A stretch of DNA of 9,787 nucleotides from a virus (taxonomy: Duplodnaviria; Heunggongvirae; Uroviricota; Caudoviricetes). The notes beneath the pieces were generated by a model. The model was not told the DNA's origin, did not search any database, and saw only the letters and a list, made by a program, of their open reading frames with translations. Shown one piece after another: positions 1 to 9,787 of the stretch. Location of the stretch: the IMG/VR virus record IMGVR_UViG_2565956716_000003. One strand, 5' to 3'. Position numbers and translations under genes: made by a program. Each line of letters starts with the position of its first letter. The first letter of the stretch is position 1.

Positions 1-1236
1 CTATGATAACCGCGCATTCAACATGGCTATCTGTTCGTCGTTCATGTCATCAATCCACATACCGTAAATTTCATACACCATCTGCGCAGTTTCATGCCCC
101 ATTTGGCTGGCTATAAATGCCGGGTTCGCTCCTGCCGTCAACAGCCAGCAGGCAAAAGTATGCCGCGTATGGTACGGATTACGGCGGCGAATACCAGCAC
201 GTTTTACTGCTGCATTCCACCTTGCCCCCAAACTGCTTACCGAGTAATAAGGTTTTTGTTTTCCGTTACACTCCCTGGGCATGAAAACAAAATGCAGTTT
301 TTGCTTTTCGGTTCTGCCGTACTCCCGATGATAAAAGGTGATTTCGCTTTTGCGATGATGCCCGGTCAGTTTGTATTGCTCCTTCAGTGCTTCAAGAGCA
401 GGCTGCAGTAGTGTTACTGTCCGGATCCCGGCATTTGTTTTTGGGGGACCGAACATATCAAGTATCGTCAGGTTTCTTCTGACATTCACTATTCCCTTTT
501 CGAGATCCACATCCTCCCACGCCAGAGCTGCCAGTTCCCCGTGACGAAGTCCTGAGTAAACTGCAAATTTCCACATGTTCTGGCTCTGTCCTTTTTCACT
601 TTCCATTAATGCATTGAATTCTGTTTTAGATAACGGATCAGGCTTTATTCTGTTTCGCTGTAATTTTTTTACTCCTTCAAATGGTTTGGTTGATATAAAT
701 CCCGACTGATACGCAAAACGTAACAGCGAACAGAGCAGGGCGATATAGTTATCAACTGTGCGCACGGTTCTTCCTTTTTTGTTGGATCTTGGATTATCCA
801 GGTAAAGCGTTTCTCCATGCAGCAGTTCATTCCGGTAGTTTAAGATATCGCTATAACGAATATGTGATATCAGGGTACTTTCACAAATTATTATTCTGAG
901 TGTTTTTAATTGTGATTTCGTTTTCTTCATTGTGTTTGTTGTTAACTCTGTCTCTTTAATTTTCGTCCAGATATCACAAAGCTCTCCGAACGTTTTTATG
1001 ACTCTCGTTGTCACCATTTTTGCCCCAGTGCTGGACTGGGGAAAACGTCTTAAATACTCAAATTCACCGGAGTTTATTTCATGAACTATCAGCGCTCTTA
1101 AATTTCCGGCCTTTTTAATATTACTGTTTGTAATCTCCCAGCCTTTTAATGTTTCCCGACATCGTTTTCCTCGAAACATGAACCAGATGCGAATGTATCT
1201 ACCTCTAATCTCGACACCTGTTGGTAATTTAGACAT
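1..1236 (-). CDS. intR: Tyrosine-family site-specific integrase, Rac-type prophage (411 aa)
   Basis: Complete ORF: ATG at 1236-1234 (cat on + strand), TAG stop at 3-1. Translation contains an integrase box I-like segment (GLRHGELAALAWEDVD) and a C-terminal HTRHTFACW segment typical of tyrosine recombinases. Matches my recollection of E. coli Rac IntR in sequence and length. Start lies 1 nt from the stop of the upstream excisionase ORF. Confidence 0.93.
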   Translation of the reverse strand: MSKLPTGVEIRGRYIRIWFMFRGKRCRETLKGWEITNSNIKKAGNLRALIVHEINSGEFEYLRRFPQSSTGAKMVTTRVIKTFGELCDIWTKIKETELTTNTMKKTKSQLKTLRIIICESTLISHIRYSDILNYRNELLHGETLYLDNPRSNKKGRTVRTVDNYIALLCSLLRFAYQSGFISTKPFEGVKKLQRNRIKPDPLSKTEFNALMESEKGQSQNMWKFAVYSGLRHGELAALAWEDVDLEKGIVNVRRNLTILDMFGPPKTNAGIRTVTLLQPALEALKEQYKLTGHHRKSEITFYHREYGRTEKQKLHFVFMPRECNGKQKPYYSVSSLGARWNAAVKRAGIRRRNPYHTRHTFACWLLTAGANPAFIASQMGHETAQMVYEIYGMWIDDMNDEQIAMLNARLS

Positions 1237-1237
1237 A

Positions 1238-1453
1238 TCATGAGTCTTTGATAAACTGATTTATCTTTGGATAGTTGTACCAGATAATCCCTCGTTTGCT
1301 GTCTGGCTTACCTAAAGGAGATACTCGTTTGAAGTGGAAGCCCTCCACCCAACAGTTCTGGCGGTATGCTTCAATTTGTCTGGCCCCCAGACCAGTGCGA
1401 AGCATCAGGCCGTATTCAACCATCCACTCTTCATTAAAGATTACTTGTGCCAT
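1238..1453 (-). CDS. xisR: Excisionase-like small DNA-binding protein (71 aa)
   Basis: ORF track gives 1238..1477; I place the start at the internal ATG (cat at 1451-1453), giving [10 protein letters not shown]..., which matches the recalled 71-aa YdaQ/XisR. Stop TGA at 1240-1238 abuts the integrase start, the usual xis-int arrangement. Confidence 0.8.
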
Positions 1454-1552
1454 CGCATCACCTCTGGCAGGCGCCAATGTTAGACTGAAATTGACGCCCG
1501 ATGTTGATTATTAATAATCAGCTATGAAGTTTTAATTTGAATACAATGCAAT

Positions 1553-1741
1553 TCACGAGGACTGAAGTTTCTCGCAATTAAAATTTATCAGTTTTACTTT
1601 CTGCTCTCTGGAAACGCCTGCTTCTTTTTTACCTGAGAGCATTTTTTCGCATTCTGATTTCGTTAGTTTAGATTTTGAATATCTTGTCCAGTTAGTAGGA
1701 GTGCTACCTTCCTTTTCAATAGTGGCGGTAATTTTATACAT
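1553..1741 (-). CDS. ydaC: Small Rac prophage protein of unknown function (YdaC-like, DUF1187)
   Basis: ORF track gives 1553..1813. The internal ATG at 1741-1739 is preceded on the minus strand by a strong SD (GGAGGTG, about 5 nt spacing), so I prefer that start (MYKITATIEKEG...). Start overlaps the 3' end of ralR by 8 nt. Identity from recalled YdaC sequence; function unknown. Confidence 0.65.
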   Translation of the reverse strand: MYKITATIEKEGSTPTNWTRYSKSKLTKSECEKMLSGKKEAGVSREQKVKLINFNCEKLQSS

Positions 1742-1928
1742 GAACACCTCCGTTATTATTTCCAGTGGTTCGTTTATTCCATCTTTCGAGTGCTTCTTTT
1801 TCACTTCCACCATAACCGGTTCGGGATTCGCATCCGTTACACTTCGCTCGGTAATATCCTGAAATGACTTTCACCGTTACTGATGGACAACCACAAAATG
1901 GACATGGTTTAACATTGTCATATCTCAT
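1734..1928 (-). CDS. ralR: Restriction-alleviation protein / type I toxin RalR (Lar), 64 aa
   Basis: In-frame ATG at 1928-1926 gives MRYDNVKPCPFCGCPSVTVKVISGYYRAKCNGCESRTGYGGSEKEALERWNKRTTGNNNGGVHV, a 64-aa product with a CPFCGC...CNGC Cys4 zinc-ribbon signature matching recalled RalR/Lar. TAA stop at 1736-1734. Two further in-frame ATGs upstream (1940, 1967) are possible alternative starts. Confidence 0.85.
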   Translation of the reverse strand: MRYDNVKPCPFCGCPSVTVKVISGYYRAKCNGCESRTGYGGSEKEALERWNKRTTGNNNGGVHV

Positions 1929-1984
1929 AATTTTTCTCATAAAAAATATTTCAAGTTGGCGGTGCATTACACCGCCAGGCTGAA

Positions 1985-2794
1985 TTATTCCTCTGAATTA
2001 TCGATTACACTGTATTCCCCGGTTAATACAGAGGAATCTGCAGGATCGATTGTCAGTGGTTCCTTTTCATCCATTGATACTGCACGCTGGATCTCAATTG
2101 ATACGGGCAGATATTTGAACAGGCGACGAATAGCCGTTTTCTTTGCCATTTCTTCCCAGTGAGTTACCCACGGCCCGTTATTACCAGCTTTACTCAGGCT
2201 GCGCACCAGCTCAATCTGTTTGCGCGTCATAACTTCAAACTGAGTACCTCCGTCTTTCAGCCTTGCGACAGCATAGACGTGGGTAACCGGGGCATCTTCG
2301 TTTTCTCCCGGGCGGTGTATTAACTTTTTATCAAGGCCAAATTCGAAGCTAAACTCGTCACCTTCACGGACAACACGGGCTGACAGGCTGGCGATTTGAC
2401 CAGAACGGCGAGCCAGATCAATCATGCCGCGATAGCCAATGATTAGCTGAACGTTCTTTTTACCGCTCTTTTCGTTTTTATTACCAAAAGGCAGTAAATA
2501 TGCATGACCGAGGGCGCTACCTGGCTCAAGTCCGAGCTGTGAACACTGTACGATCGCACTGACAAAACTCATAGTGTCACAGTTTCCTAACGCCGGAACT
2601 TTACGAATTTCTGTGGTGGCGATACGGATCATACGTTCAGCCGTCATATGGCGTGGAAGAGCTGCTGCCAGTTGCTCTTTCATTGATGGCTGGTTAATAA
2701 AACTAATCACGTCGCTATTTTTAACTGCTGCTGGTGCACGGTTTCCCTGAGTTTTTTGCAGATCGGCTTTTGCGATTGGTGGTTGCTTAGTCAT
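1985..2794 (-). CDS. recT: RecT single-strand annealing recombinase (269 aa)
   Basis: ORF track gives 1985..2851; start placed at ATG 2794-2792 ([16 protein letters not shown]...), giving the 269-aa length recalled for RecT. AAGGA SD lies just upstream on the minus strand. Start overlaps the recE stop (2789-2787) by 8 nt, the classic recE-recT coupling. Confidence 0.93.
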
Positions 2795-4760
2795 TTGCAT
2801 ATTCCTTAGCCCAGCGGGGCAGTGATAATGTCTTAATAGCTGGCCATTCATCGGTATTCAGGCAGTCAGACAGGGTTCGCAGATTGCGGTGATATTCCTG
2901 TTGACCTGCCAGTTTTGCTTCTTCGCCCATCATGAAAATTTCAACCGGATAACGTCCGCATTCAATAGTTGTGCTGGCAACCAGAAAAACGAAAGTTGGC
3001 TGCACTCCAAACTGTGCTTCATAACCGTCACTGTAGAATGCATCCTGAACGTGATAGCGGTAGTCGTAATAAGCGGTTTTGAATCGTTGAATATCCGCCG
3101 TAGTTTTCACGTCCATGATCCAGTGAAATTCAGGGATAATTTTGTCCGGACGGCACCGACACAAAATTCCTGTTTCAGGATCTTCCCAGTAAATTGATGA
3201 TTCAGCGTGTCCGGCGCTTTCAACAAGCCATTGCCCCAGCGGCAAAGCCATAACGCTTTGATACATGAGTTCAATTTTCCGGCCTTCTTCCGCAGTGATA
3301 ACTGTTTTTCCTGTGCTTGCGCATTCCATCAGAAACGCTTTCTCTTCTTCTTTTCCGGCGTTTGTACGGCGGTTAAATTCAGGTGCTACGATAAAGCGGT
3401 TACTGAATTCTTCCGGTTCAAGTACCCGGCAGTGGAAAGCGGTTCCTAAATCGAGCGTTTTTGTCTTTGTGGTGTCCACGGGGGCATTTTTACGCCACAA
3501 ATATAGTGCCGGAGTATCAGCAATGTCATCGAGCTGAGACTTACTGACACCGGGACCCGCGTGGTAATTCTCATTCGAAATTCCGTAATAAATACCTGGC
3601 TCTATGTCTTCTACGATTACGGGATCTGCGACTTCGCCAGTTTCATCACTGCAATCGCGATGCGGATCGCTGCCAGCATTCTCATTATGCGGATGTTCAG
3701 CGCCTTCCATTTCCTCCGGATCATTTTCCTTAGCTTCAACCTGACTCTCTTCATCGAATGTTTCCTGGTATGTTGCGTCGCCCATCACCGCACCACAGTC
3801 AGGGCAGTTATCCCCGCCAGTCTGGCCGCAGGCATTGCAGGCTATTTCCGGTTCCTGTTGCACTACTGGCTCAGGTTGATTCATATCCGGGCTGGTTTTT
3901 TCCGTTTCTGGCTGGTTCTGGTACACACAATCGCGAGTCTGGATCCCCTTTACCCATTTCGGATCGTTCGGGTCGCTAATTCCGTCAACAAATTCACCAC
4001 GTGATGCAGCAAGCAATTTATCGGCATCGACAGGATCTTTTGATGGAATGTTTTTCCGGGCTTCATGGAGTTCTGCCCGCAGTTCCTGATATTTCGCATC
4101 AACAGAATTTACCTGTGACTGAGCATCCAGCGGCTGCGTGTCCTGATGATGTTCAGTTGCGTCCGGTTCCATTGTTTCAGCCTCTCCCTGTTCAACTGCC
4201 GTTGTTCCAGATGGTTGCGGTTTTTCTTCATCATCCTGTTTTCCTTCTTCTGTTACTCGCTGCGGCATCGGGGCAGAGGAGCGACCGCAGGCAATATCCA
4301 CGATTTCCGGATCAGGGTTGGCATGATCGGTTTCAGTCAGTACTTTGTTCAGATATTCAGTGACGTGCGCGGGGATGACCTCGATCCCAATTGGTGCTTC
4401 TTTTACGGACGCAACCACGATGGCGCGGGAATAATCCAGCCCGCCAGGCATGGTGATGAATTTGTCGCGGAAAACAGAAAAGGGCGGTTTATTTTCAGCG
4501 ATAATTTCCTCAATGCGTTTAGCGTGTGCCGGATGAAGGTTATAGATGTCCAGATCCATTGAACGGGCCAGTACGCCAGTGGCTACGTCGCGCGCCAGTG
4601 ACGTCAGATCGTGTACGAAACCTTCGCCGCGATCGGTGAGGTTTCCGCCGCCAGCATTAGCACCGGAAGCCGTGCGAGTGATGTGTGAAACACGATTACC
4701 CTTCATCCACTCTTTTGTCAGCAGTCCTCGATCGGTATAGTCAGCGTTCAGGTATAGCAT
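2787..4760 (-). CDS. recE: Exonuclease VIII RecE, 5'-truncated: C-terminal 657 codons, nuclease domain complete
   Basis: 657-aa ORF from ATG 4760-4758 to TAA 2789-2787, with an in-frame TGA only 4 codons upstream (4772-4770). Reference RecE is recalled as 866 aa, so about 209 N-terminal codons are absent. Recalled active-site residues D748/D759/K761 map with a 209 offset onto D539/D550/K552 of this ORF (codons 3146-3144, 3113-3111, 3107-3105), which I verified are GAC/GAC/AAA on the minus strand. No SD before the ATG at 4760, so expression is uncertain. Confidence 0.85.
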
Positions 4761-5194
4761 CAGTGTTAATCACTGGCTCAAGTGGTAACGATGGTCTGGA
4801 GGGTGTCAGCTACATACCATACAAAGATATTGTTGGTGTATGGACTGTATGTCACGGGCATACAGGAAAAGACATCATGCTCGGTAAAACGTATACCAAA
4901 GCAGAATGCAAGGCACTCTTGAATAAAGACCTTGCCACTGTCGCCAGACAAATTAACCCGTACATCAAAGTCGATATACCGGAAACAACGCGCGGCGCTC
5001 TTTACTCATTCGTTTACAACGTGGGTGCTGGCAATTTCAGAACATCGACGCTTCTTCGCAAAATAAACCAGGGCGATATCAAAGGCGCATGTGATCAGCT
5101 ACGTCGCTGGACATATGCTGGCGGTAAGCAATGGAAAGGTCTCATGACTCGTCGTGAGATTGAGCGTGAAATCTGTTTGTGGGGTCAGCAATGA
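4754..5194 (+). pseudogene. P21/RrrD-type phage lysozyme (endolysin) lacking the N-terminal signal-anchor-release segment
   Basis: Translation from about 4754 reads [40 protein letters not shown]...[13 protein letters not shown], matching the recalled RrrD/R21 lysozyme from about residue 20 onward. The catalytic E-x8-D-x5-T triad is present. No ATG precedes it: the ORF track starts at GTG 4685 inside antisense recE sequence, and the first in-frame ATG (4877) is downstream of the triad. Stop TGA 5192-5194 overlaps the Rz start (ATGA). Confidence 0.8.
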
Positions 5195-5655
5195 ACAGAG
5201 TAACCGCGATTATCTCCGCTCTGGTTATCTGCATCATCGTCTGCCTGTCATGGGCTGTTAATCATTACCGTGATAACGCCATTACCTATAAAGCCCAGCG
5301 CGACAAAAATGCCAGAGAACTGAAGCTGGCGAACGCGGCAATTACTGACATGCAGATGCGTCAGCGTGATGTTGCTGCGCTCGATGCAAAATACACGAAG
5401 GAGTTAGCTGATGCGAAAGCTGAAAATGATGCTCTGCGTGATGATGTTGCCGCTGGTCGTCGTCGGTTGCACATCAAAGCAGTCTGTCAGTCAGTGCGTG
5501 AAGCCACCACCGCCTCCGGCGTGGATAATGCAGCATCCCCCCGACTGGCAGACACCGCTGAACGGGATTATTTCACCCTCCGGGAACGACTGGTAATGAT
5601 GCAGGCCCAACTTGAAGGAGCTCAGCAATACATAACCGAACAGTGTTTAAAGTAA
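5191..5655 (+). CDS. rzpR: Rz-type inner-membrane spanin (i-spanin), 154 aa
   Basis: ATG at 5191 overlapping the lysozyme stop; the ORF track start at 5179 is a GTG. N-terminal hydrophobic segment ([20 protein letters not shown]) followed by a long charged, coiled-coil-like region, typical of Rz. TAA at 5653-5655. Appears intact here. Confidence 0.88.
5411..5596 (+). CDS. rzoR: Rz1-type outer-membrane lipoprotein spanin (o-spanin), 61 aa, nested in the +1 frame of Rz
   Basis: ATG at 5411 entirely inside the Rz ORF in a different frame. Product [20 protein letters not shown]... has a lipoprotein signal peptide with lipobox-like VVGC, then a proline-rich PPPPP segment; the embedded Rz1 architecture is well established for lambdoid phages. 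Confidence 0.88.
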
Positions 5656-5792
5656 AATCTTAACTACAATATGATTTATTTTGATGATTGTTTCATAAGG
5701 AACAGTGAAGTAAGATCTAAGAGGAGTTAAATTTTATACAGTATAATCATAATATTGCAGCAAGGTGGTTATAATTGAAAGAATATTTAGAT

Positions 5793-7262
5793 ATGAATAC
5801 ATCTCATGTAAGAGTTGTTACTCATATGTGTGGGTTCCTGGTTTGGCTCTATAGTCTTTCAATGTTGCCACCAATGGTTGTAGCATTGTTTTATAAAGAA
5901 AAAAGCCTGTTCGTTTTCTTTATAACCTTCGTTATATTTTTTTGCATTGGTGGCGGAGCGTGGTATACAACTAAGAAATCTGGCATTCAATTACGTACCC
6001 GTGATGGGTTTATTATAATTGTAATGTTTTGGATTTTGTTTTCTGTTATTAGTGCATTCCCTTTATGGATTGACTCAGAACTTAATTTAACGTTCATTGA
6101 TGCTCTTTTTGAAGGGGTTTCTGGAATAACAACAACAGGAGCAACTGTAATTGATGATGTTAGTTCATTACCTCGGGCATATTTGTACTATCGGTCACAG
6201 TTAAATTTTATAGGTGGTTTAGGAGTTATTGTTCTGGCGGTTGCTGTATTGCCATTATTGGGTATTGGTGGTGCAAAGCTTTATCAGTCAGAAATGCCGG
6301 GGCCATTTAAGGATGACAAACTCACTCCCCGCCTGGCCGATACGTCACGGACACTGTGGATAACTTATTCTTTATTAGGTATTGCTTGTATTGTCTGTTA
6401 TAGACTTGCAGGAATGCCTTTGTTTGATGCTATTTGTCACGGGATTTCCACAGTTTCGCTTGGTGGTTTCTCAACTCATAGCGAGAGTATCGGATATTTT
6501 AATAACTATTTGGTTGAGCTGGTGGCTGGTTCTTTTTCCCTGCTATCGGCTTTCAACTTCACTCTTTGGTATATTGTTATTAGCAGGAAAACGATAAAAC
6601 CTTTAATCAGAGATATTGAACTTCGTTTCTTTCTGTTAATAGCCTTAGTGGTGATCATTGTTACCTCTTTCCAGGTCTGGCATATAGGTATGTATGACTT
6701 GCATGGAAGTTTTATTCATTCGTTTTTTCTTGCCAGCTCCATGCTCACTGATAATGGTTTAGCTACGCAAGATTATGCAAACTGGCCCACGCACACGATA
6801 GTGTTTTTGCTGTTGTCAAGTTTCTTTGGGGGATGTATAGGTTCAACTTGTGGTGGAATTAAGTCACTTCGATTTCTTATACTTTTCAAACAAAGCAAAC
6901 ACGAGATAAATCAGCTTTCTCATCCCAGAGCGTTGTTGAGTGTAAATGTAGGAGGGAAGATAGTTACAGATCGTGTAATGAGGTCTGTATGGAGTTTCTT
7001 TTTTCTTTATACTCTCTTCACGGTGTTTTTTATACTGGTGTTAAATGGTATGGGATATGATTTTCTTACATCATTTGCAACAGTGGCTGCATGTATTAAT
7101 AATATGGGATTAGGTTTTGGGGCTACTGCATCGTCATTCGGAGTGCTTAATGACATTGCAAAATATTTAATGTGCATAGCTATGATTCTTGGTCGCCTTG
7201 AAATTTATCCTGTTATTATATTGTTTTCAGGTTTTTTTTTGGCGCTCCTAATATATGGCTGA
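5793..7262 (+). CDS. trkG: Trk-system potassium uptake membrane protein TrkG (TrkH family)
   Basis: Long multi-pass membrane ORF, markedly more AT-rich than its neighbours. Translation MNTSHVRVVTHMCGFLVWLYSL... matches recalled TrkG. I place the start at ATG 5793; the ORF track start at 5775 is a TTG preceded by AAGGTGG, so it is a possible alternative. Stop TGA 7260-7262. Confidence 0.9.
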   Translation: MNTSHVRVVTHMCGFLVWLYSLSMLPPMVVALFYKEKSLFVFFITFVIFFCIGGGAWYTTKKSGIQLRTRDGFIIIVMFWILFSVISAFPLWIDSELNLTFIDALFEGVSGITTTGATVIDDVSSLPRAYLYYRSQLNFIGGLGVIVLAVAVLPLLGIGGAKLYQSEMPGPFKDDKLTPRLADTSRTLWITYSLLGIACIVCYRLAGMPLFDAICHGISTVSLGGFSTHSESIGYFNNYLVELVAGSFSLLSAFNFTLWYIVISRKTIKPLIRDIELRFFLLIALVVIIVTSFQVWHIGMYDLHGSFIHSFFLASSMLTDNGLATQDYANWPTHTIVFLLLSSFFGGCIGSTCGGIKSLRFLILFKQSKHEINQLSHPRALLSVNVGGKIVTDRVMRSVWSFFFLYTLFTVFFILVLNGMGYDFLTSFATVAACINNMGLGFGATASSFGVLNDIAKYLMCIAMILGRLEIYPVIILFSGFFLALLIYG

Positions 7263-7337
7263 TTTATAATTGTGAGTTTAATATTATATTGACTCACTCA
7301 TTGATCCAATACCTAACTTTACCAGCAACACCTCCGC

Positions 7338-7369
7338 CCCCAGTAGCACTGGCTGCTGGGGTGCGTTTT
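7338..7369 (+). terminator. Putative intrinsic terminator downstream of trkG
   Basis: Inverted repeat ccccagtagc (7338-7347) / gctgctgggg (7352-7361) forms a 10-bp GC-rich stem (one G-U pair) with a 4-nt loop, followed by tgcg and a T-rich run (ttttatt). The 4-nt spacer before the T tract is atypical, hence low confidence. Confidence 0.3.
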
Positions 7370-7388
7370 ATTCATAAAGCAAGGCTGT

Positions 7389-8177
7389 ATGAGCGAGAAA
7401 TTAAAGATAGTCTATCGCCCATTACAAGAATTGTCACCGTATGCGCACAACGCCAGGACGCACAGTACTGAGCAGGTGGCACAACTGGTAGAAAGTATTA
7501 AGCAATTCGGCTGGACTAATCCGATGCTGATTGACGAAAAGGGCGAAATTATTGCGGGTCACGGTCGTGTTATGGCGGCTGAAATGCTCAAAATGGATTC
7601 TGTTCCGGTCATTGTTCTGTCTGGCCTGACGGATGAGCAGAAAAAGGCGTACCGCTTGGCAGATAATCGCCTACCGATGAATGCTGGCTGGGATGAAGAT
7701 CTGTTGCGGATGGAGCTGTCGGTCCTAATCAATGCTGATTTTGATGTCTCCCTGACAGGCTTCGGCCCGACAGAAATTGATGAACTGTTGACGGATGTTT
7801 TGCCCGGTACAGGAAATAAGGAGGAGCCGTATACGACGAAAATTGATACGCCTGTTTATGAGCCGTCGGGCGGTAAACCGGATATCAGTGAACTGTACGA
7901 CGATACGAAAACTCAGGAGCTGATCAGCCGGATACGTTCGGCGTCCCTTGATCCTGATATTGAGAAATTCCTCCTGTGTGCGGCAGAACGTCACACGGTG
8001 TTTAATTTCAGCAGAATTGCGGACTATTACGCTCATGCCCCCGCTGAAATTCAGTGCCTTTTCGAGGAGTCGGCGCTGGTGATCATTGATTATCAGCAGG
8101 CTATTGAAAATGGATTTGTCCGAATGACGCAGCGCATGGTGGAGATCATGCATGGCGGGGAGGAGGAATATGCGTGA
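7389..8177 (+). CDS. ynaK: ParB-like nuclease-domain protein (ParB/Srx fold), 262 aa
   Basis: ATG at 7389, TGA at 8175-8177. The N-terminal region has a ParB/sulfiredoxin-family signature (EIIAGHGRVMAAEML, compare the ParB GERRxRAA box). The N-terminus matches my recollection of Rac YnaK. Confidence 0.75.
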   Translation: MSEKLKIVYRPLQELSPYAHNARTHSTEQVAQLVESIKQFGWTNPMLIDEKGEIIAGHGRVMAAEMLKMDSVPVIVLSGLTDEQKKAYRLADNRLPMNAGWDEDLLRMELSVLINADFDVSLTGFGPTEIDELLTDVLPGTGNKEEPYTTKIDTPVYEPSGGKPDISELYDDTKTQELISRIRSASLDPDIEKFLLCAAERHTVFNFSRIADYYAHAPAEIQCLFEESALVIIDYQQAIENGFVRMTQRMVEIMHGGEEEYA

Positions 8178-8183
8178 TGATTT

Positions 8184-9206
8184 TTGCGCCTTTATTCTGA
8201 CTCACGGGCGACCGGAAAAAGTTCTGACTTACCGGACGTTGCGTCGTGCTGGCTAGCCGCGCTGACAGACAATACGCAGGGGGCAGCAGGTCTTGAGTTA
8301 TACGAGGTGTATAACAACGGATATCCAACAGCGTATGGAAATATCATTCACCTGAAAGGGATGTCAGCCGTTGGCGAAGGTGAGTTACTCATCGGCTGGA
8401 GTGGTACAAGCGGTGCTCATGCTCCGGCATTTATTCGTTCACGACGGGATACGACCGACGCAAACTGGTCGCCGTGGGCGCAGCTTTACACCTCGGCTCA
8501 TCCTCCTGCAGAGTTTTATCCAGTCGGTGCACCAATCCCGTGGCCATCAGATACCGTTCCGTCAGGTTATGCCCTGATGCAGGGGCAGACTTTTGACAAA
8601 TCTGCATACCCGAAACTTGCAGCAGCTTATCCGTCAGGCGTGATCCCTGATATGCGTGGCTGGACGATTAAGGGCAAGCCCGCCAGTGGTCGTGCCGTAT
8701 TGTCTCAGGAACAGGACGGCATTAAATCGCACACCCACAGCGCCAGCGCATCCAGTACGGATTTGGGGACGAAAACCACATCGTCGTTTGATTACGGCAC
8801 TAAATCCACGAATAACACCGGTGCGCATACCCATAGTTTAAGTGGCAGCACGAATGCAGCTGGTAATCACAGCCATAGAGATGGCCGTCGATTTAACCCC
8901 AGTGTTTTTAAAGATACTTATCAATATGGTTATACAAGTTCCGGTACAAATACTTGGGGTGTACAAGGTTCAGTAGGTATGTCTACGGGGTGGTTAGCTA
9001 ATACCAGTACAGATGGTAATCATAGCCACTCACTGTCCGGCACAGCAGCATCTGCAGGTACACACGCACATACTGTCGGTATTGGTGCTCATACGCACTC
9101 CGTTGCGATTGGCTCACATGGACACACCATCACCGTTAACGCTGCTGGTAACGCGGAAAACACCGTCAAAAACATCGCATTTAACTATATTGTGAGGCTT
9201 GCATAA
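8184..9206 (+). pseudogene. stfR: Side tail fibre StfR, C-terminal fragment (340 codons) with HxH repeat domain
   Basis: The ORF begins at a TTG directly after ynaK with no credible start. Translation ends ...[22 protein letters not shown] and carries seven G-x-H-x-H motifs, matching recalled lambdoid side tail fibre C-termini; the full protein is over 1000 aa. Stop TAA 9204-9206 overlaps the tfaR ATG (TAATG). Confidence 0.8.
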
Positions 9207-9787
9207 TGGCATTCAGAATGAGTGAACAAGCACGGACCATAAAAATTTATAATCTGCTGGCCGGAACTAATGAATTTATTGGTGAAGGTGACGCATATAT
9301 TCCGCCTCATACAGGTCTGCCAGCAAACAGTACCGATATTGCACCACCAGATATTCCTGCTGGCTTTGTGGCTGTTTTCAACAGTGATGAGGCATCGTGG
9401 CATCTCGTTGAAGACCATCGGGGTAAAACGGTTTATGACGTAGCGTCAGGGGACGCGTTATTTATTTCTGAACTCGGTCCGTTACCGGAAAATGTTACCT
9501 GGTTATCGCCGGAAGGGGAGTTTCAGAAGTGGAACGGCACAGCCTGGGTGAAGGATACGGAAGCAGAAAAACTGTTCCGGATCCGGGAGGCGGAAGAAAC
9601 AAAAAACAGCCTGATGCAGGTAGCCAGTGAGCATATTGCGCCGCTTCAGGATGCTGCAGATCTGAAAATCGCAACGGAGGAAGAAACCTCGTTGCTGGAA
9701 GCCTGGAAAAAGTATCGGGTGCTGCTAAACCGTGTGGACACTTCCGTAGCACCAGATATCGAGTGGCCAGCTGCACCTATAGGGTAA
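9206..9787 (+). CDS. tfaR: Tail fibre assembly protein (chaperone), 193 aa
   Basis: ATG at 9206 overlapping the stf stop; TAA at 9785-9787. Translation [53 protein letters not shown]... matches recalled TfaR-family proteins; the stf-tfa pairing is conserved. Confidence 0.9.

What the first reader, a model, noticed from the sequence alone, without database searches (positions are those of the whole stretch)
2787..4760. Truncated RecE retains the complete exonuclease domain and intact coupling to recT (sbcA-like configuration?)
The missing ~209 N-terminal codons are dispensable for RecE nuclease activity in the literature, and known sbcA activating mutations are rearrangements upstream of or within the 5' part of recE. 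The catalytic residues (D539, D550, K552 in fragment numbering) are intact and the recE-recT overlap is preserved. If any promoter reads leftward through the junction, this strain could express a constitutive RecET recombination pathway. I could not identify a convincing promoter or SD upstream of the ATG at 4760.
Basis: inference. Interest (0 to 1): 0.5.

Follow-up and report, generated by a model that had tools for sequence, protein, structure and literature searches.

The report
Truncated, promoterless recE in Rac prophage
A recent 13-kb deletion inside the defective Rac prophage of an E. coli lineage cut off the front of the recE nuclease gene together with its promoter, leaving what is most likely a silent remnant rather than a switched-on RecET recombination system.

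Summary
ORF 4760..2787(-) encodes Met-Leu plus RecE residues 212-866, 100% identical to an undeleted near-identical relative. It keeps the whole crystallised nuclease domain, D748/D759/K761 and the 8-nt recE/recT overlap.

Corrections:
- 211 native codons are lost, not 209, including the whole Pfam Exonuc_VIII domain.
- The ATG at 4760 is not recE sequence. It is the antisense of lysozyme codons Ala-Ser, created by a 13,161-bp deletion with a 3-nt TAT microhomology (4753-4755).

The deletion removed racC, kilR, the repressor/cro-type immunity module, replication genes, the DUF1133 gene, the holin and the region from which recET is normally transcribed. It joined recE' head-to-head to a 5'-truncated lysozyme gene, so no co-oriented gene or known promoter reads into recE'. 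Promoter-like matches are at chance level, and the ATG has no Shine-Dalgarno (-1.9 versus -6.6 kcal/mol for the native start).

The junction is inherited: at least 24 public contigs carry it, and NCBI annotation (PGAP) calls recE a pseudogene. The ORF is intact because the event is young.

"sbcA-like" is therefore not supported, though only expression data can exclude it.

One weak lead: three independent recT changes (E156K, Q236K, E215*) occur in this young clade.

The parts
2787..4755 (-). recE' : RecE residues 212-866 plus stop codon; 5'-truncated, promoterless remnant of exonuclease VIII gene
   Evidence: 100% identical to the corresponding part of full-length recE in MSHS 472 (L005). NCBI annotation (PGAP) of the identical junction in 18AR0366 calls it 'recE, incomplete, missing N-terminus'.
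4755..4760 (-). Junction-derived Met-Leu codons (ATG 4760-4758, CTA 4757-4755) that open the 657-codon ORF; not native recE sequence
   Evidence: bases 4753 onward match the lysozyme gene (codons I-A-S-V-L-I-T-G on the + strand); anti-SD pairing is only -1.9 kcal/mol, and an in-frame TGA lies 12 nt upstream.
4753..4755 (.). Deletion junction: 3-nt microhomology TAT shared by recE (L005 6840-6842) and lysozyme (L005 20001-20003); 13,161 bp missing relative to MSHS 472
   Evidence: blastn arms 1-4755 and 4753-9787; junction alignment.
2790..3575 (-). Complete PD-(D/E)XK nuclease domain (fragment residues 396-657 = RecE 605-866)
   Evidence: PDB 3H4R, E=2e-180, chain residues 4-265 of 265 aligned; PF12684, E=2.4e-28.
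3105..3146 (-). Codons for catalytic D539, D550, K552 (fragment numbering; D748/D759/K761 in RecE)
   Evidence: One search shows the residues in context ([22 protein letters not shown]). Their catalytic role is from my recollection of the RecE biochemistry and structure literature, not verified in the held library.
1985..2794 (-). recT (269 aa) with native 8-nt overlap ATGACTAA on the recE stop; this window's allele carries E156K
   Evidence: PF03837, E=1e-55; SD -6.0 kcal/mol; E156K vs K-12/MSHS 472.
4753..5194 (+). 5'-truncated phage lysozyme (RrrD-like), lacking its first ~19 codons; divergent from recE'. The PGAP 'lysozyme' call 4715-5194 takes a new N-terminus from antisense recE
5191..5655 (+). 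Rz (with embedded Rz1 5411-5596): + strand lysis genes that any leftward transcript would have to cross antisense
5567..5774 (-). Best leftward sigma-70-like matches upstream of the junction (5596-5567 and 5774-5746, plus 5261-5233 further in); ordinary scores in the AT-rich trkG promoter region
   Evidence: 7 sites found vs 9.2 expected from shuffles; own PWM; scores 8.2-8.6 against a window maximum of 11.7. PMC5811629: the trkG promoter is the only constitutive RpoD promoter detected in Rac.

Best explanation
The window is a Rac cryptic prophage at ttcA that suffered a recent 13,161-bp internal deletion. The mechanism was probably illegitimate recombination at a 3-nt microhomology.

The deletion runs from recE codon 211/212 to lysozyme codon ~19. 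It removed:
- racC, ydaE, kilR, sieB;
- the repressor/cro-type immunity module and ydaT;
- the replication genes, the DUF1133 gene, two tRNAs and the holin;
- the regulatory region from which recE-recT are transcribed.

What remains is a 5'-truncated recE placed head-to-head against a 5'-truncated lysozyme gene. The 657-codon ORF exists because an antisense lysozyme triplet happens to supply an in-frame ATG. It is intact because the event is very young, not because it is used.

The encoded protein would be an active nuclease if made (inferred from published C-terminal fragments). With no promoter and no ribosome-binding site, the most likely state is transcriptional silence, as for recET in wild-type K-12. 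It is a pseudogene remnant, not an sbcA-type activation.
For: - Junction and deletion: window 1-4755 equals L005 2088-6842 and window 4753-9787 equals L005 20001-25034, at 99.98% identity.
- Deleted gene content.
- Age: there are 0 amino-acid differences in RecE 212-866 against the undeleted relative, and only 0-2 substitutions per ~8-10 kb among junction-bearing contigs.
- The junction is real and inherited. The exact 657-aa ORF is on >=24 contigs (the index lists it in 50 blocks) and the fusion lysozyme is on >=24 contigs. Of 25 contigs with this DUF1187 allele, 19 carry the deletion.
- Annotation: PGAP calls recE a pseudogene.
- Orientation: every gene to the right of the junction is on the + strand, so it is divergent from recE'.
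- Promoters: 7 promoter-like sites against 9.2+/-2.7 expected, none at the junction. My own PWM scan gives the same result.
- Translation start: the ATG at 4760 pairs with the anti-SD at -1.9 kcal/mol, against -6.6 for the native recE start and -6.0 for recT.
- Literature: recET is silent in MG1655 unless sbcA or lambda-rev activates it (PMC3945230). racR silencing derepresses racC, recE, recT, ralR, xisR and intR together (bioRxiv 10.64898/2026.09.06.749655). The only constitutive RpoD promoter found in Rac is that of trkG (PMC5811629). Loss of half of Rac, with recE and trkG retained, is common across E. coli (PMC5700373).
Against: - No expression data exist, and consensus scans cannot exclude weak or divergent promoters in the AT-rich trkG leader 0.8-1.0 kb upstream.
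- An internal in-frame ATG (window 4172, fragment M197 = RecE M406) has a good Shine-Dalgarno (-8.2 kcal/mol). It could yield a nuclease-domain product from any read-in transcript.
- Three independent recT changes (E156K, Q236K, E215*) sit among the 7-9 substitution events seen in the clade. That is more than expected if the region were uniformly neutral (nominal p 0.007-0.03).
Confidence: 0.75

Rival explanations
1. This is an sbcA-like, low-level constitutive RecE'-RecT. A spurious or divergent leftward promoter reads antisense through Rz and lys' into recE'. It would lie in the AT-rich trkG promoter region (5567-5774) or elsewhere in the lysis genes. Translation would start at ATG 4760 or at the internal SD-equipped ATG 4172, and recT would be translated from its own SD.
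For: - The nuclease domain and recT coupling are intact.
- An internal ATG has a -8.2 kcal/mol Shine-Dalgarno.
- RNAP binds the trkG promoter region in K-12 (PMC5811629), and minus-strand 9/12 matches lie at 5596-5567 and 5261-5233.
- The deletion also removed the repressor.
- recT was hit three times independently in the young clade, once by a nonsense codon. The E156 and Q236 positions are conserved in Listeria RecT. That pattern would fit a cost of expression.
Against: - Promoter matches are at or below the shuffled expectation.
- A ~0.8-1.0 kb untranslated antisense leader would be exposed to Rho termination (inference), and a terminator-like hairpin sits at 4919-4903 on the minus strand.
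- E156K also occurs in undeleted K-12-like Rac backgrounds, so it is not specific to the deletion.
- The recT enrichment is post hoc, rests on small counts, and comes from a non-random sample of contigs.
- The 12 or so junction-bearing contigs compared that were not retrieved through the exact 657-aa ORF show no disruptive recE' change, only E297E, V325A and P181S.
Confidence: 0.15
2. recT alone is expressed from an internal promoter inside recE (ATGACA-18-TATATT, 3529-3500, minus strand), independently of the deletion. The truncated recE would be irrelevant.
For: This is the best promoter-like match in the whole window: 10/12 and the top score, 11.7. It lies ~0.7 kb upstream of recT.
Against: Searches list no difference from K-12 across 3500-3529, and recET is reported as completely repressed in K-12 (PMC3945230). 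A terminator-like hairpin overlaps the site (3522-3507). It is a consensus match only.
Confidence: 0.05
3. The junction is an assembly artefact caused by repeated lambdoid lysis cassettes.
For: Some contigs (L008, L009) end or become mosaic inside the lysis genes from 4858 onward.
Against: The identical junction is present in a complete chromosome (18AR0366) and in >=24 independent contigs of up to 3.2 Mb that span both sides.
Confidence: 0.01

Closest known systems
sbcA mutations of Rac (e.g. the sbcA8 racC-recE fusion, Tn5/IS50 promoter insertions, regulatory point alleles such as sbcA23)
   Same: The lesion lies in Rac at the 5' side of recE and leaves the C-terminal nuclease domain plus recT intact. 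The N-terminal part of RecE is dispensable for nuclease and recombination function (PMC11611040).
   Different: sbcA alleles are defined by switching on recE expression (PMC10956419, PMC3945230). The molecular details of sbcA8 and the Tn5 alleles are from my memory of the Clark laboratory papers, which the library does not hold. Here the upstream transcription unit is deleted, the new neighbour is divergently oriented, no expressed ORF is fused in frame, and no phenotype is known.
Engineered C-terminal RecE fragments used in recombineering (RecE564-866, RecE588-866, crystallised 606-866)
   Same: The window's ORF contains all of these fragments at 652/655 identity or better to K-12 over RecE 212-866. 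It would be expected to be an active 5'-3' dsDNA exonuclease and a partner of RecT if expressed (PMC11257833, PMC11611040).
   Different: The engineered fragments are driven by plasmid promoters and ribosome-binding sites. This one has neither. It also retains ~350 residues of linker (212-563) that the engineered versions lack.
Other decayed Rac prophages (K-12 Rac; the recE::lysozyme deletions in strains PCP06171 and CFSAN061772)
   Same: They sit at the same ttcA site and share the intR-xisR-ralR-recT-recE left arm and the Rz-trkG right arm. In all of them the central toxic, immunity and replication genes have been lost by internal deletion (PMC5700373).
   Different: The end points differ: recE codon ~141 joined to lysozyme codon ~55-65 in those two strains, with a 3-4-nt microhomology (TAC / TACC). 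K-12 keeps full-length recE and the racR module but has lost the lysozyme.

Membership tests
RecE / exonuclease VIII | C-terminal PD-(D/E)XK nuclease domain | tested here: met
   PF12684 E=2.4e-28. PDB 3H4R E=2e-180, covering chain residues 4-265 of 265.
RecE / exonuclease VIII | Catalytic Asp748, Asp759, Lys761 | tested here: met
   D539, D550 and K552 of the fragment are present in their native context. Their assignment as catalytic is from memory of the literature.
RecE / exonuclease VIII | N-terminal Exonuc_VIII domain (PF06630, residues 2-178) | tested here: not met
   It is present in full-length RecE of L005 (E=1e-96) and absent from the fragment. The deletion removes codons 1-211.
RecE / exonuclease VIII | Translational overlap with a downstream recT (ATGACTAA) | tested here: met
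   the recE stop is at 2787-2789 and the recT ATG at 2794-2792. The stretch has no difference from K-12.
RecE / exonuclease VIII | 5'-3' dsDNA exonuclease activity of the product | not testable with these tools
   Needs the protein or a genetic assay.
sbcA-type activation of recET | Lesion in Rac upstream of or within the 5' part of recE | tested here: met
   The left end of the deletion lies at recE codon 211/212.
sbcA-type activation of recET | A derepressed or newly supplied promoter co-oriented with recE | tested here: not met
   The native upstream region is deleted. The neighbouring genes are all on the opposite strand. Promoter-like sites number 7 against 9.2 expected, with none at the junction. 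Weak promoters cannot be excluded by sequence.
sbcA-type activation of recET | A functional translation start (own RBS or in-frame fusion to an expressed ORF) | tested here: not met
   The ATG at 4760 is antisense lysozyme sequence with -1.9 kcal/mol anti-SD pairing and an in-frame TGA 12 nt upstream. Only the internal ATG at 4172 has a Shine-Dalgarno.
sbcA-type activation of recET | ExoVIII made constitutively; suppression of recB recC defects | not testable with these tools
   Needs an experiment.
Rac cryptic prophage | Integration next to ttcA with intR-xisR-ralR-recT-recE synteny and the Rz-trkG right arm | tested here: met
   Identity to K-12 Rac is 99.5% over 1-4755 and 99.0% over 5211-7642.
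Rac cryptic prophage | racR/ydaS/ydaT-type immunity module | tested here: not met
   It lies within the 13,161 bp that are absent.

The most novel reading that the evidence does not exclude
By removing the repressor and all rightward late transcription, the deletion lets weak leftward transcription from the trkG promoter region leak into recE'-recT. The lineage would then make small constitutive amounts of a nuclease-domain RecE and RecT. This would be costly or otherwise under selection, and recT would be repeatedly altered or knocked out (E156K, Q236K, E215*). That would be a natural sbcA-like state followed by compensatory loss.
Probability: 0.1. Interest if true: 0.45.

Novelty: already known. 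Interest (0 to 1): 0.15.

Why it matters
If RecE'-RecT were constitutively expressed in a natural lineage, that lineage would have a RecA-independent, short-homology recombination pathway switched on. This would affect prophage mosaicism, uptake of linear DNA and triggering of retron defences by RecE (bioRxiv 10.1101/2020.06.22.160242). The evidence instead points to ordinary decay of a cryptic prophage. The toxic centre of Rac is lost, the flanks (recET remnant, trkG) stay, and the truncated gene is already annotated as a pseudogene in public genomes. The practical lesson is that an intact long ORF at a deletion junction can owe its start codon to chance and its integrity to youth.

Tried and rejected
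- I tried to read the primary sbcA papers (Chu et al. 1989; Clark et al. 1994) and the RecE structure paper by DOI and PMC id. None is held. The molecular nature of individual sbcA alleles therefore rests on my memory.
- Two literature searches were wasted on word-start matching, where 'rece' matched 'receptor'.
- I looked for a promoter created by the junction itself. The only candidate is TTGAGC-N19-TATACC / TGcTATACC across 4790-4750 on the minus strand. It lacks the conserved final T of the -10 element, fails the scan criteria, and would start transcription downstream of the ATG. I rejected it.
- I considered that the recurrence of recE::lysozyme deletions reflects a hotspot. The two junction types have different end points and only 3-4-nt microhomologies. 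CFSAN061772 is explained as the PCP06171 junction plus a further 29-bp TAC-TAC slippage. That makes two independent events in 5,426 genomes, which is not a hotspot.
- I considered that recT changes are specific to the deletion clade. This is weakened because E156K also occurs in undeleted K-12-like Rac.
- I searched for transcript-derived (short) contigs carrying the junction. All contigs found are genomic, longer than 10 kb.

Full report
**What the window is**

The 9.8-kb window is the Rac cryptic prophage at ttcA. The ORF list and the annotated public matches give this map:
- intR (1-1236, -)
- xisR
- a DUF1187/rcbA-like gene
- ralR
- recT (1985-2794, -)
- a truncated recE (2787-4760, -)
- a truncated phage lysozyme (to 5194, +)
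- Rz/Rz1
- trkG
- a ParB-like ynaK
- a tail-fibre remnant
- tfaR

The window is 100% identical to GCA_000488035.1 scaffold KI530615.1. It differs by two substitutions and one homopolymer base from the complete chromosome of strain 18AR0366.

**Checking the observation**

The 657-codon ORF is real.
- Fragment residues 3-657 align without gaps to RecE residues 212-866. Identity is 655/655 to the RecE of strain MSHS 472 and 652/655 to K-12.
- Pfam finds the PDDEXK-like domain PF12684 at fragment 406-641.
- The crystallised RecE nuclease domain (PDB 3H4R) aligns to fragment 396-657 at E=2e-180.
- D539, D550 and K552 are present.
- recT starts 8 nt before the recE stop (ATGACTAA) behind an AAGGAA Shine-Dalgarno. 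This stretch has no difference from K-12.

- 211 native codons are lost, including the entire N-terminal Pfam domain PF06630 (RecE 2-178).
- The ATG at 4760 is not recE sequence.

**The junction**

MSHS 472 (locus L005) carries the same Rac variant with an intact middle. It shares the same intR, DUF1187, ralR, trkG and tfaR protein accessions.
- Window 1-4755 equals L005 2088-6842, with one mismatch.
- Window 4753-9787 equals L005 20001-25034, with one homopolymer gap.
- The window therefore lacks 13,161 bp, and the two arms share the trinucleotide TAT (4753-4755).

The lost DNA holds:
- recE codons 1-211, racC, ydaE, kilR, sieB and ydaF;
- the HTH repressor and cro-like genes, and ydaT;
- ydaU, ydaV and several DUF genes, including DUF1133;
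- two tRNAs, the holin essD and the first ~19 codons of the lysozyme.

On the minus strand, the lysozyme codons Ala-Ser (GCA TCA) read ...TGATGC.... This supplies an in-frame ATG five bases beyond the last recE-only base, and an in-frame TGA sits 12 nt upstream. The ORF's start codon is thus a by-product of the junction.

**Is anything likely to express it?**

Every gene to the right of the junction is on the + strand, so recE' and lys' are divergent and each has lost its own 5' end and promoter.

*Literature*
- In native Rac, recE and recT rise together with racC, kilR, ralR, xisR and intR when RacR is silenced (bioRxiv 10.64898/2026.09.06.749655).
- They are otherwise reported as completely repressed, and are activated only by sbcA mutations or by capture in lambda rev (PMC3945230, PMC10956419).
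- That whole upstream region is gone here.

*Promoters*
- The consensus scan of 2500-7400 finds 7 promoter-like sites against 9.2+/-2.7 in shuffles. The only leftward ones upstream of the junction are 9/12 matches at 5596-5567 and 5261-5233, and a terminator-like hairpin at 4919-4903 lies between them and recE'.
- My own position-weight scan gives the same picture, with no site near the junction and ordinary scores in the AT-rich trkG leader.
- Genomic SELEX in K-12 found only one constitutive RpoD promoter in Rac, that of trkG, which points away from recE' (PMC5811629).

*Translation*
- The ATG at 4760 pairs with the anti-Shine-Dalgarno at only -1.9 kcal/mol. The native recE start gives -6.6 and recT gives -6.0.
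- The best in-frame internal start is ATG 4172 (RecE M406, -8.2 kcal/mol). It would still include the nuclease domain.

An sbcA-type lesion works by supplying transcription, and in fusion alleles a translated upstream ORF. Neither is present. The comparison with sbcA therefore holds for what is retained, not for what activates it.

**Why the ORF is intact**

The junction is inherited by a clade.
- The exact 657-aa product is on at least 24 contigs (the index lists 50 blocks).
- The fusion lysozyme product is on at least 24 contigs.
- 19 of 25 contigs with this DUF1187 allele carry the deletion.

Only 1 of 5,426 complete E. coli genomes in the local collection has the junction.

Junction-bearing contigs differ from the reconstructed ancestor by 0-2 substitutions over 8-10 kb, so the event is very recent. 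An unbroken reading frame carries no information about selection at this age. PGAP already annotates the gene as 'recE, incomplete, missing N-terminus'.

**Wider context**

- Loss of the toxic and immunity centre of Rac, with retention of recE and trkG, is the common pattern across E. coli (PMC5700373).
- In the complete-genome set, 1,692 genomes hold at least 80% of the 3' 1.19 kb of recE, but only 1,441 hold at least 80% of the 5' 632 bp deleted here. recE copies with a missing or different 5' part are therefore not rare.
- Two other genomes (PCP06171, CFSAN061772) carry an independent recE::lysozyme deletion, at recE codon ~141. The second looks like the first plus a further 29-bp slippage between TAC repeats.

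**A lead that runs the other way**

I tallied independent substitution events among junction-bearing contigs.
- recT: E156K (this window and a sizeable subclade), Q236K (18AR0366) and E215* (GCA_054493085.1, where recT is no longer called).
- Elsewhere: xisR W10R, tail-fibre T49R and dbpA C244F.
- recE': E297E, V325A and P181S.

K-12 and the ancestor differ in recT only by two synonymous sites. E156 and Q236 align with identical residues in Listeria RecT at about 25% overall identity.

Three of 7-9 events in a gene that is 6-10% of the sequence gives a nominal binomial p of 0.007-0.03. This would fit a cost of recT expression.

The case is weak, for four reasons:
- The gene was chosen after seeing the data.
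- The contig sample is filtered by the look-up tool for differing neighbour proteins.
- The counts are tiny.
- The identical E156K change also occurs in undeleted K-12-like Rac backgrounds (L028, L032).

I record it as a lead, not a finding.

**Verdict**

The most likely reading (about 0.75) is a young, promoterless recE pseudogene remnant next to an intact recT in a decaying Rac prophage. It would probably be active if expressed, but it is probably silent.

A leaky, sbcA-like state cannot be excluded without transcript or phenotype data (about 0.15).

The feature belongs to a well-known kind and is already annotated, so interest is low.

Noticed in passing
window 2329 (recT codon 156); also 2089 and 2152 in related loci L001/L012 and L013: The window's recT carries E156K. 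Two other junction-bearing lineages carry Q236K and E215* (nonsense). Three of the 7-9 independent substitutions seen in this very young clade hit recT (nominal p 0.007-0.03). E156K also occurs in undeleted K-12-like Rac (L028, L032), so it is either recurrent or was moved by a short conversion tract.
   Followed up: partly
window 7232-7240 (3' end of trkG): The homopolymer is T9 here and T8 in MSHS 472, 18AR0366 and K-12. This frameshifts the last three trkG codons (...SGFFWRS* becomes ...SGFFLALLIYG*). The change is shared with GCA_012601895.1, so it is probably real rather than a sequencing error. Its effect on TrkG is unknown.
   Followed up: partly
window 4715-5194 (+): PGAP calls a 159-aa 'lysozyme' (WP_044501964.1). 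Its first ~13 residues are encoded by the antisense strand of recE. The native N-terminal ~19 residues, probably a signal-anchor (SAR) segment, are lost, and the holin is deleted. A rightward promoter-like site, TTGTCA-15-TATAGT, lies at 4715-4741 inside recE-derived DNA (own scan).
   Followed up: no
loci L002 6560-6575 and L003 6560-6575 (strains PCP06171, CFSAN061772): These carry an independent recE::lysozyme deletion at recE codon ~141. The two strains share the recE end point, but their lysozyme end points differ by 29 bp. This is explained by secondary slippage between TAC repeats. CFSAN061772 also has an IS2 insertion just downstream of the lysozyme remnant, ahead of Rz.
   Followed up: partly
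window 1553-1741 (-): The DUF1187/rcbA-like gene ends 7 codons early relative to K-12 rcbA (62 vs 69 aa; TGA here, AGA in K-12 at window 1555). This allele marks the Rac sub-lineage in which the deletion arose.
   Followed up: no
window 3500-3529 (-), inside recE': This is the best sigma-70-like match of the whole window (ATGACA-18-TATATT, 10/12). It lies within the nuclease-domain coding region, ~0.7 kb upstream of recT, and is overlapped by a terminator-like hairpin. K-12 shows no difference across this stretch.
   Followed up: no
loci L008 and L009, equivalent to window 4858-5330: Some junction-bearing draft contigs switch to a diverged lysis-cassette sequence from 4858 onward and end there. 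The cause is either gene conversion with another lambdoid prophage or repeat-induced assembly mosaicism.
   Followed up: no
hit H56 (E. coli NEBExpress, a B strain): The B-strain Rac recE appears split by an internal deletion into a 'RecE family exodeoxyribonuclease' part and a separate 'PD-(D/E)XK nuclease-like' part. This is another natural recE rearrangement that keeps the nuclease domain next to recT.
   Followed up: no
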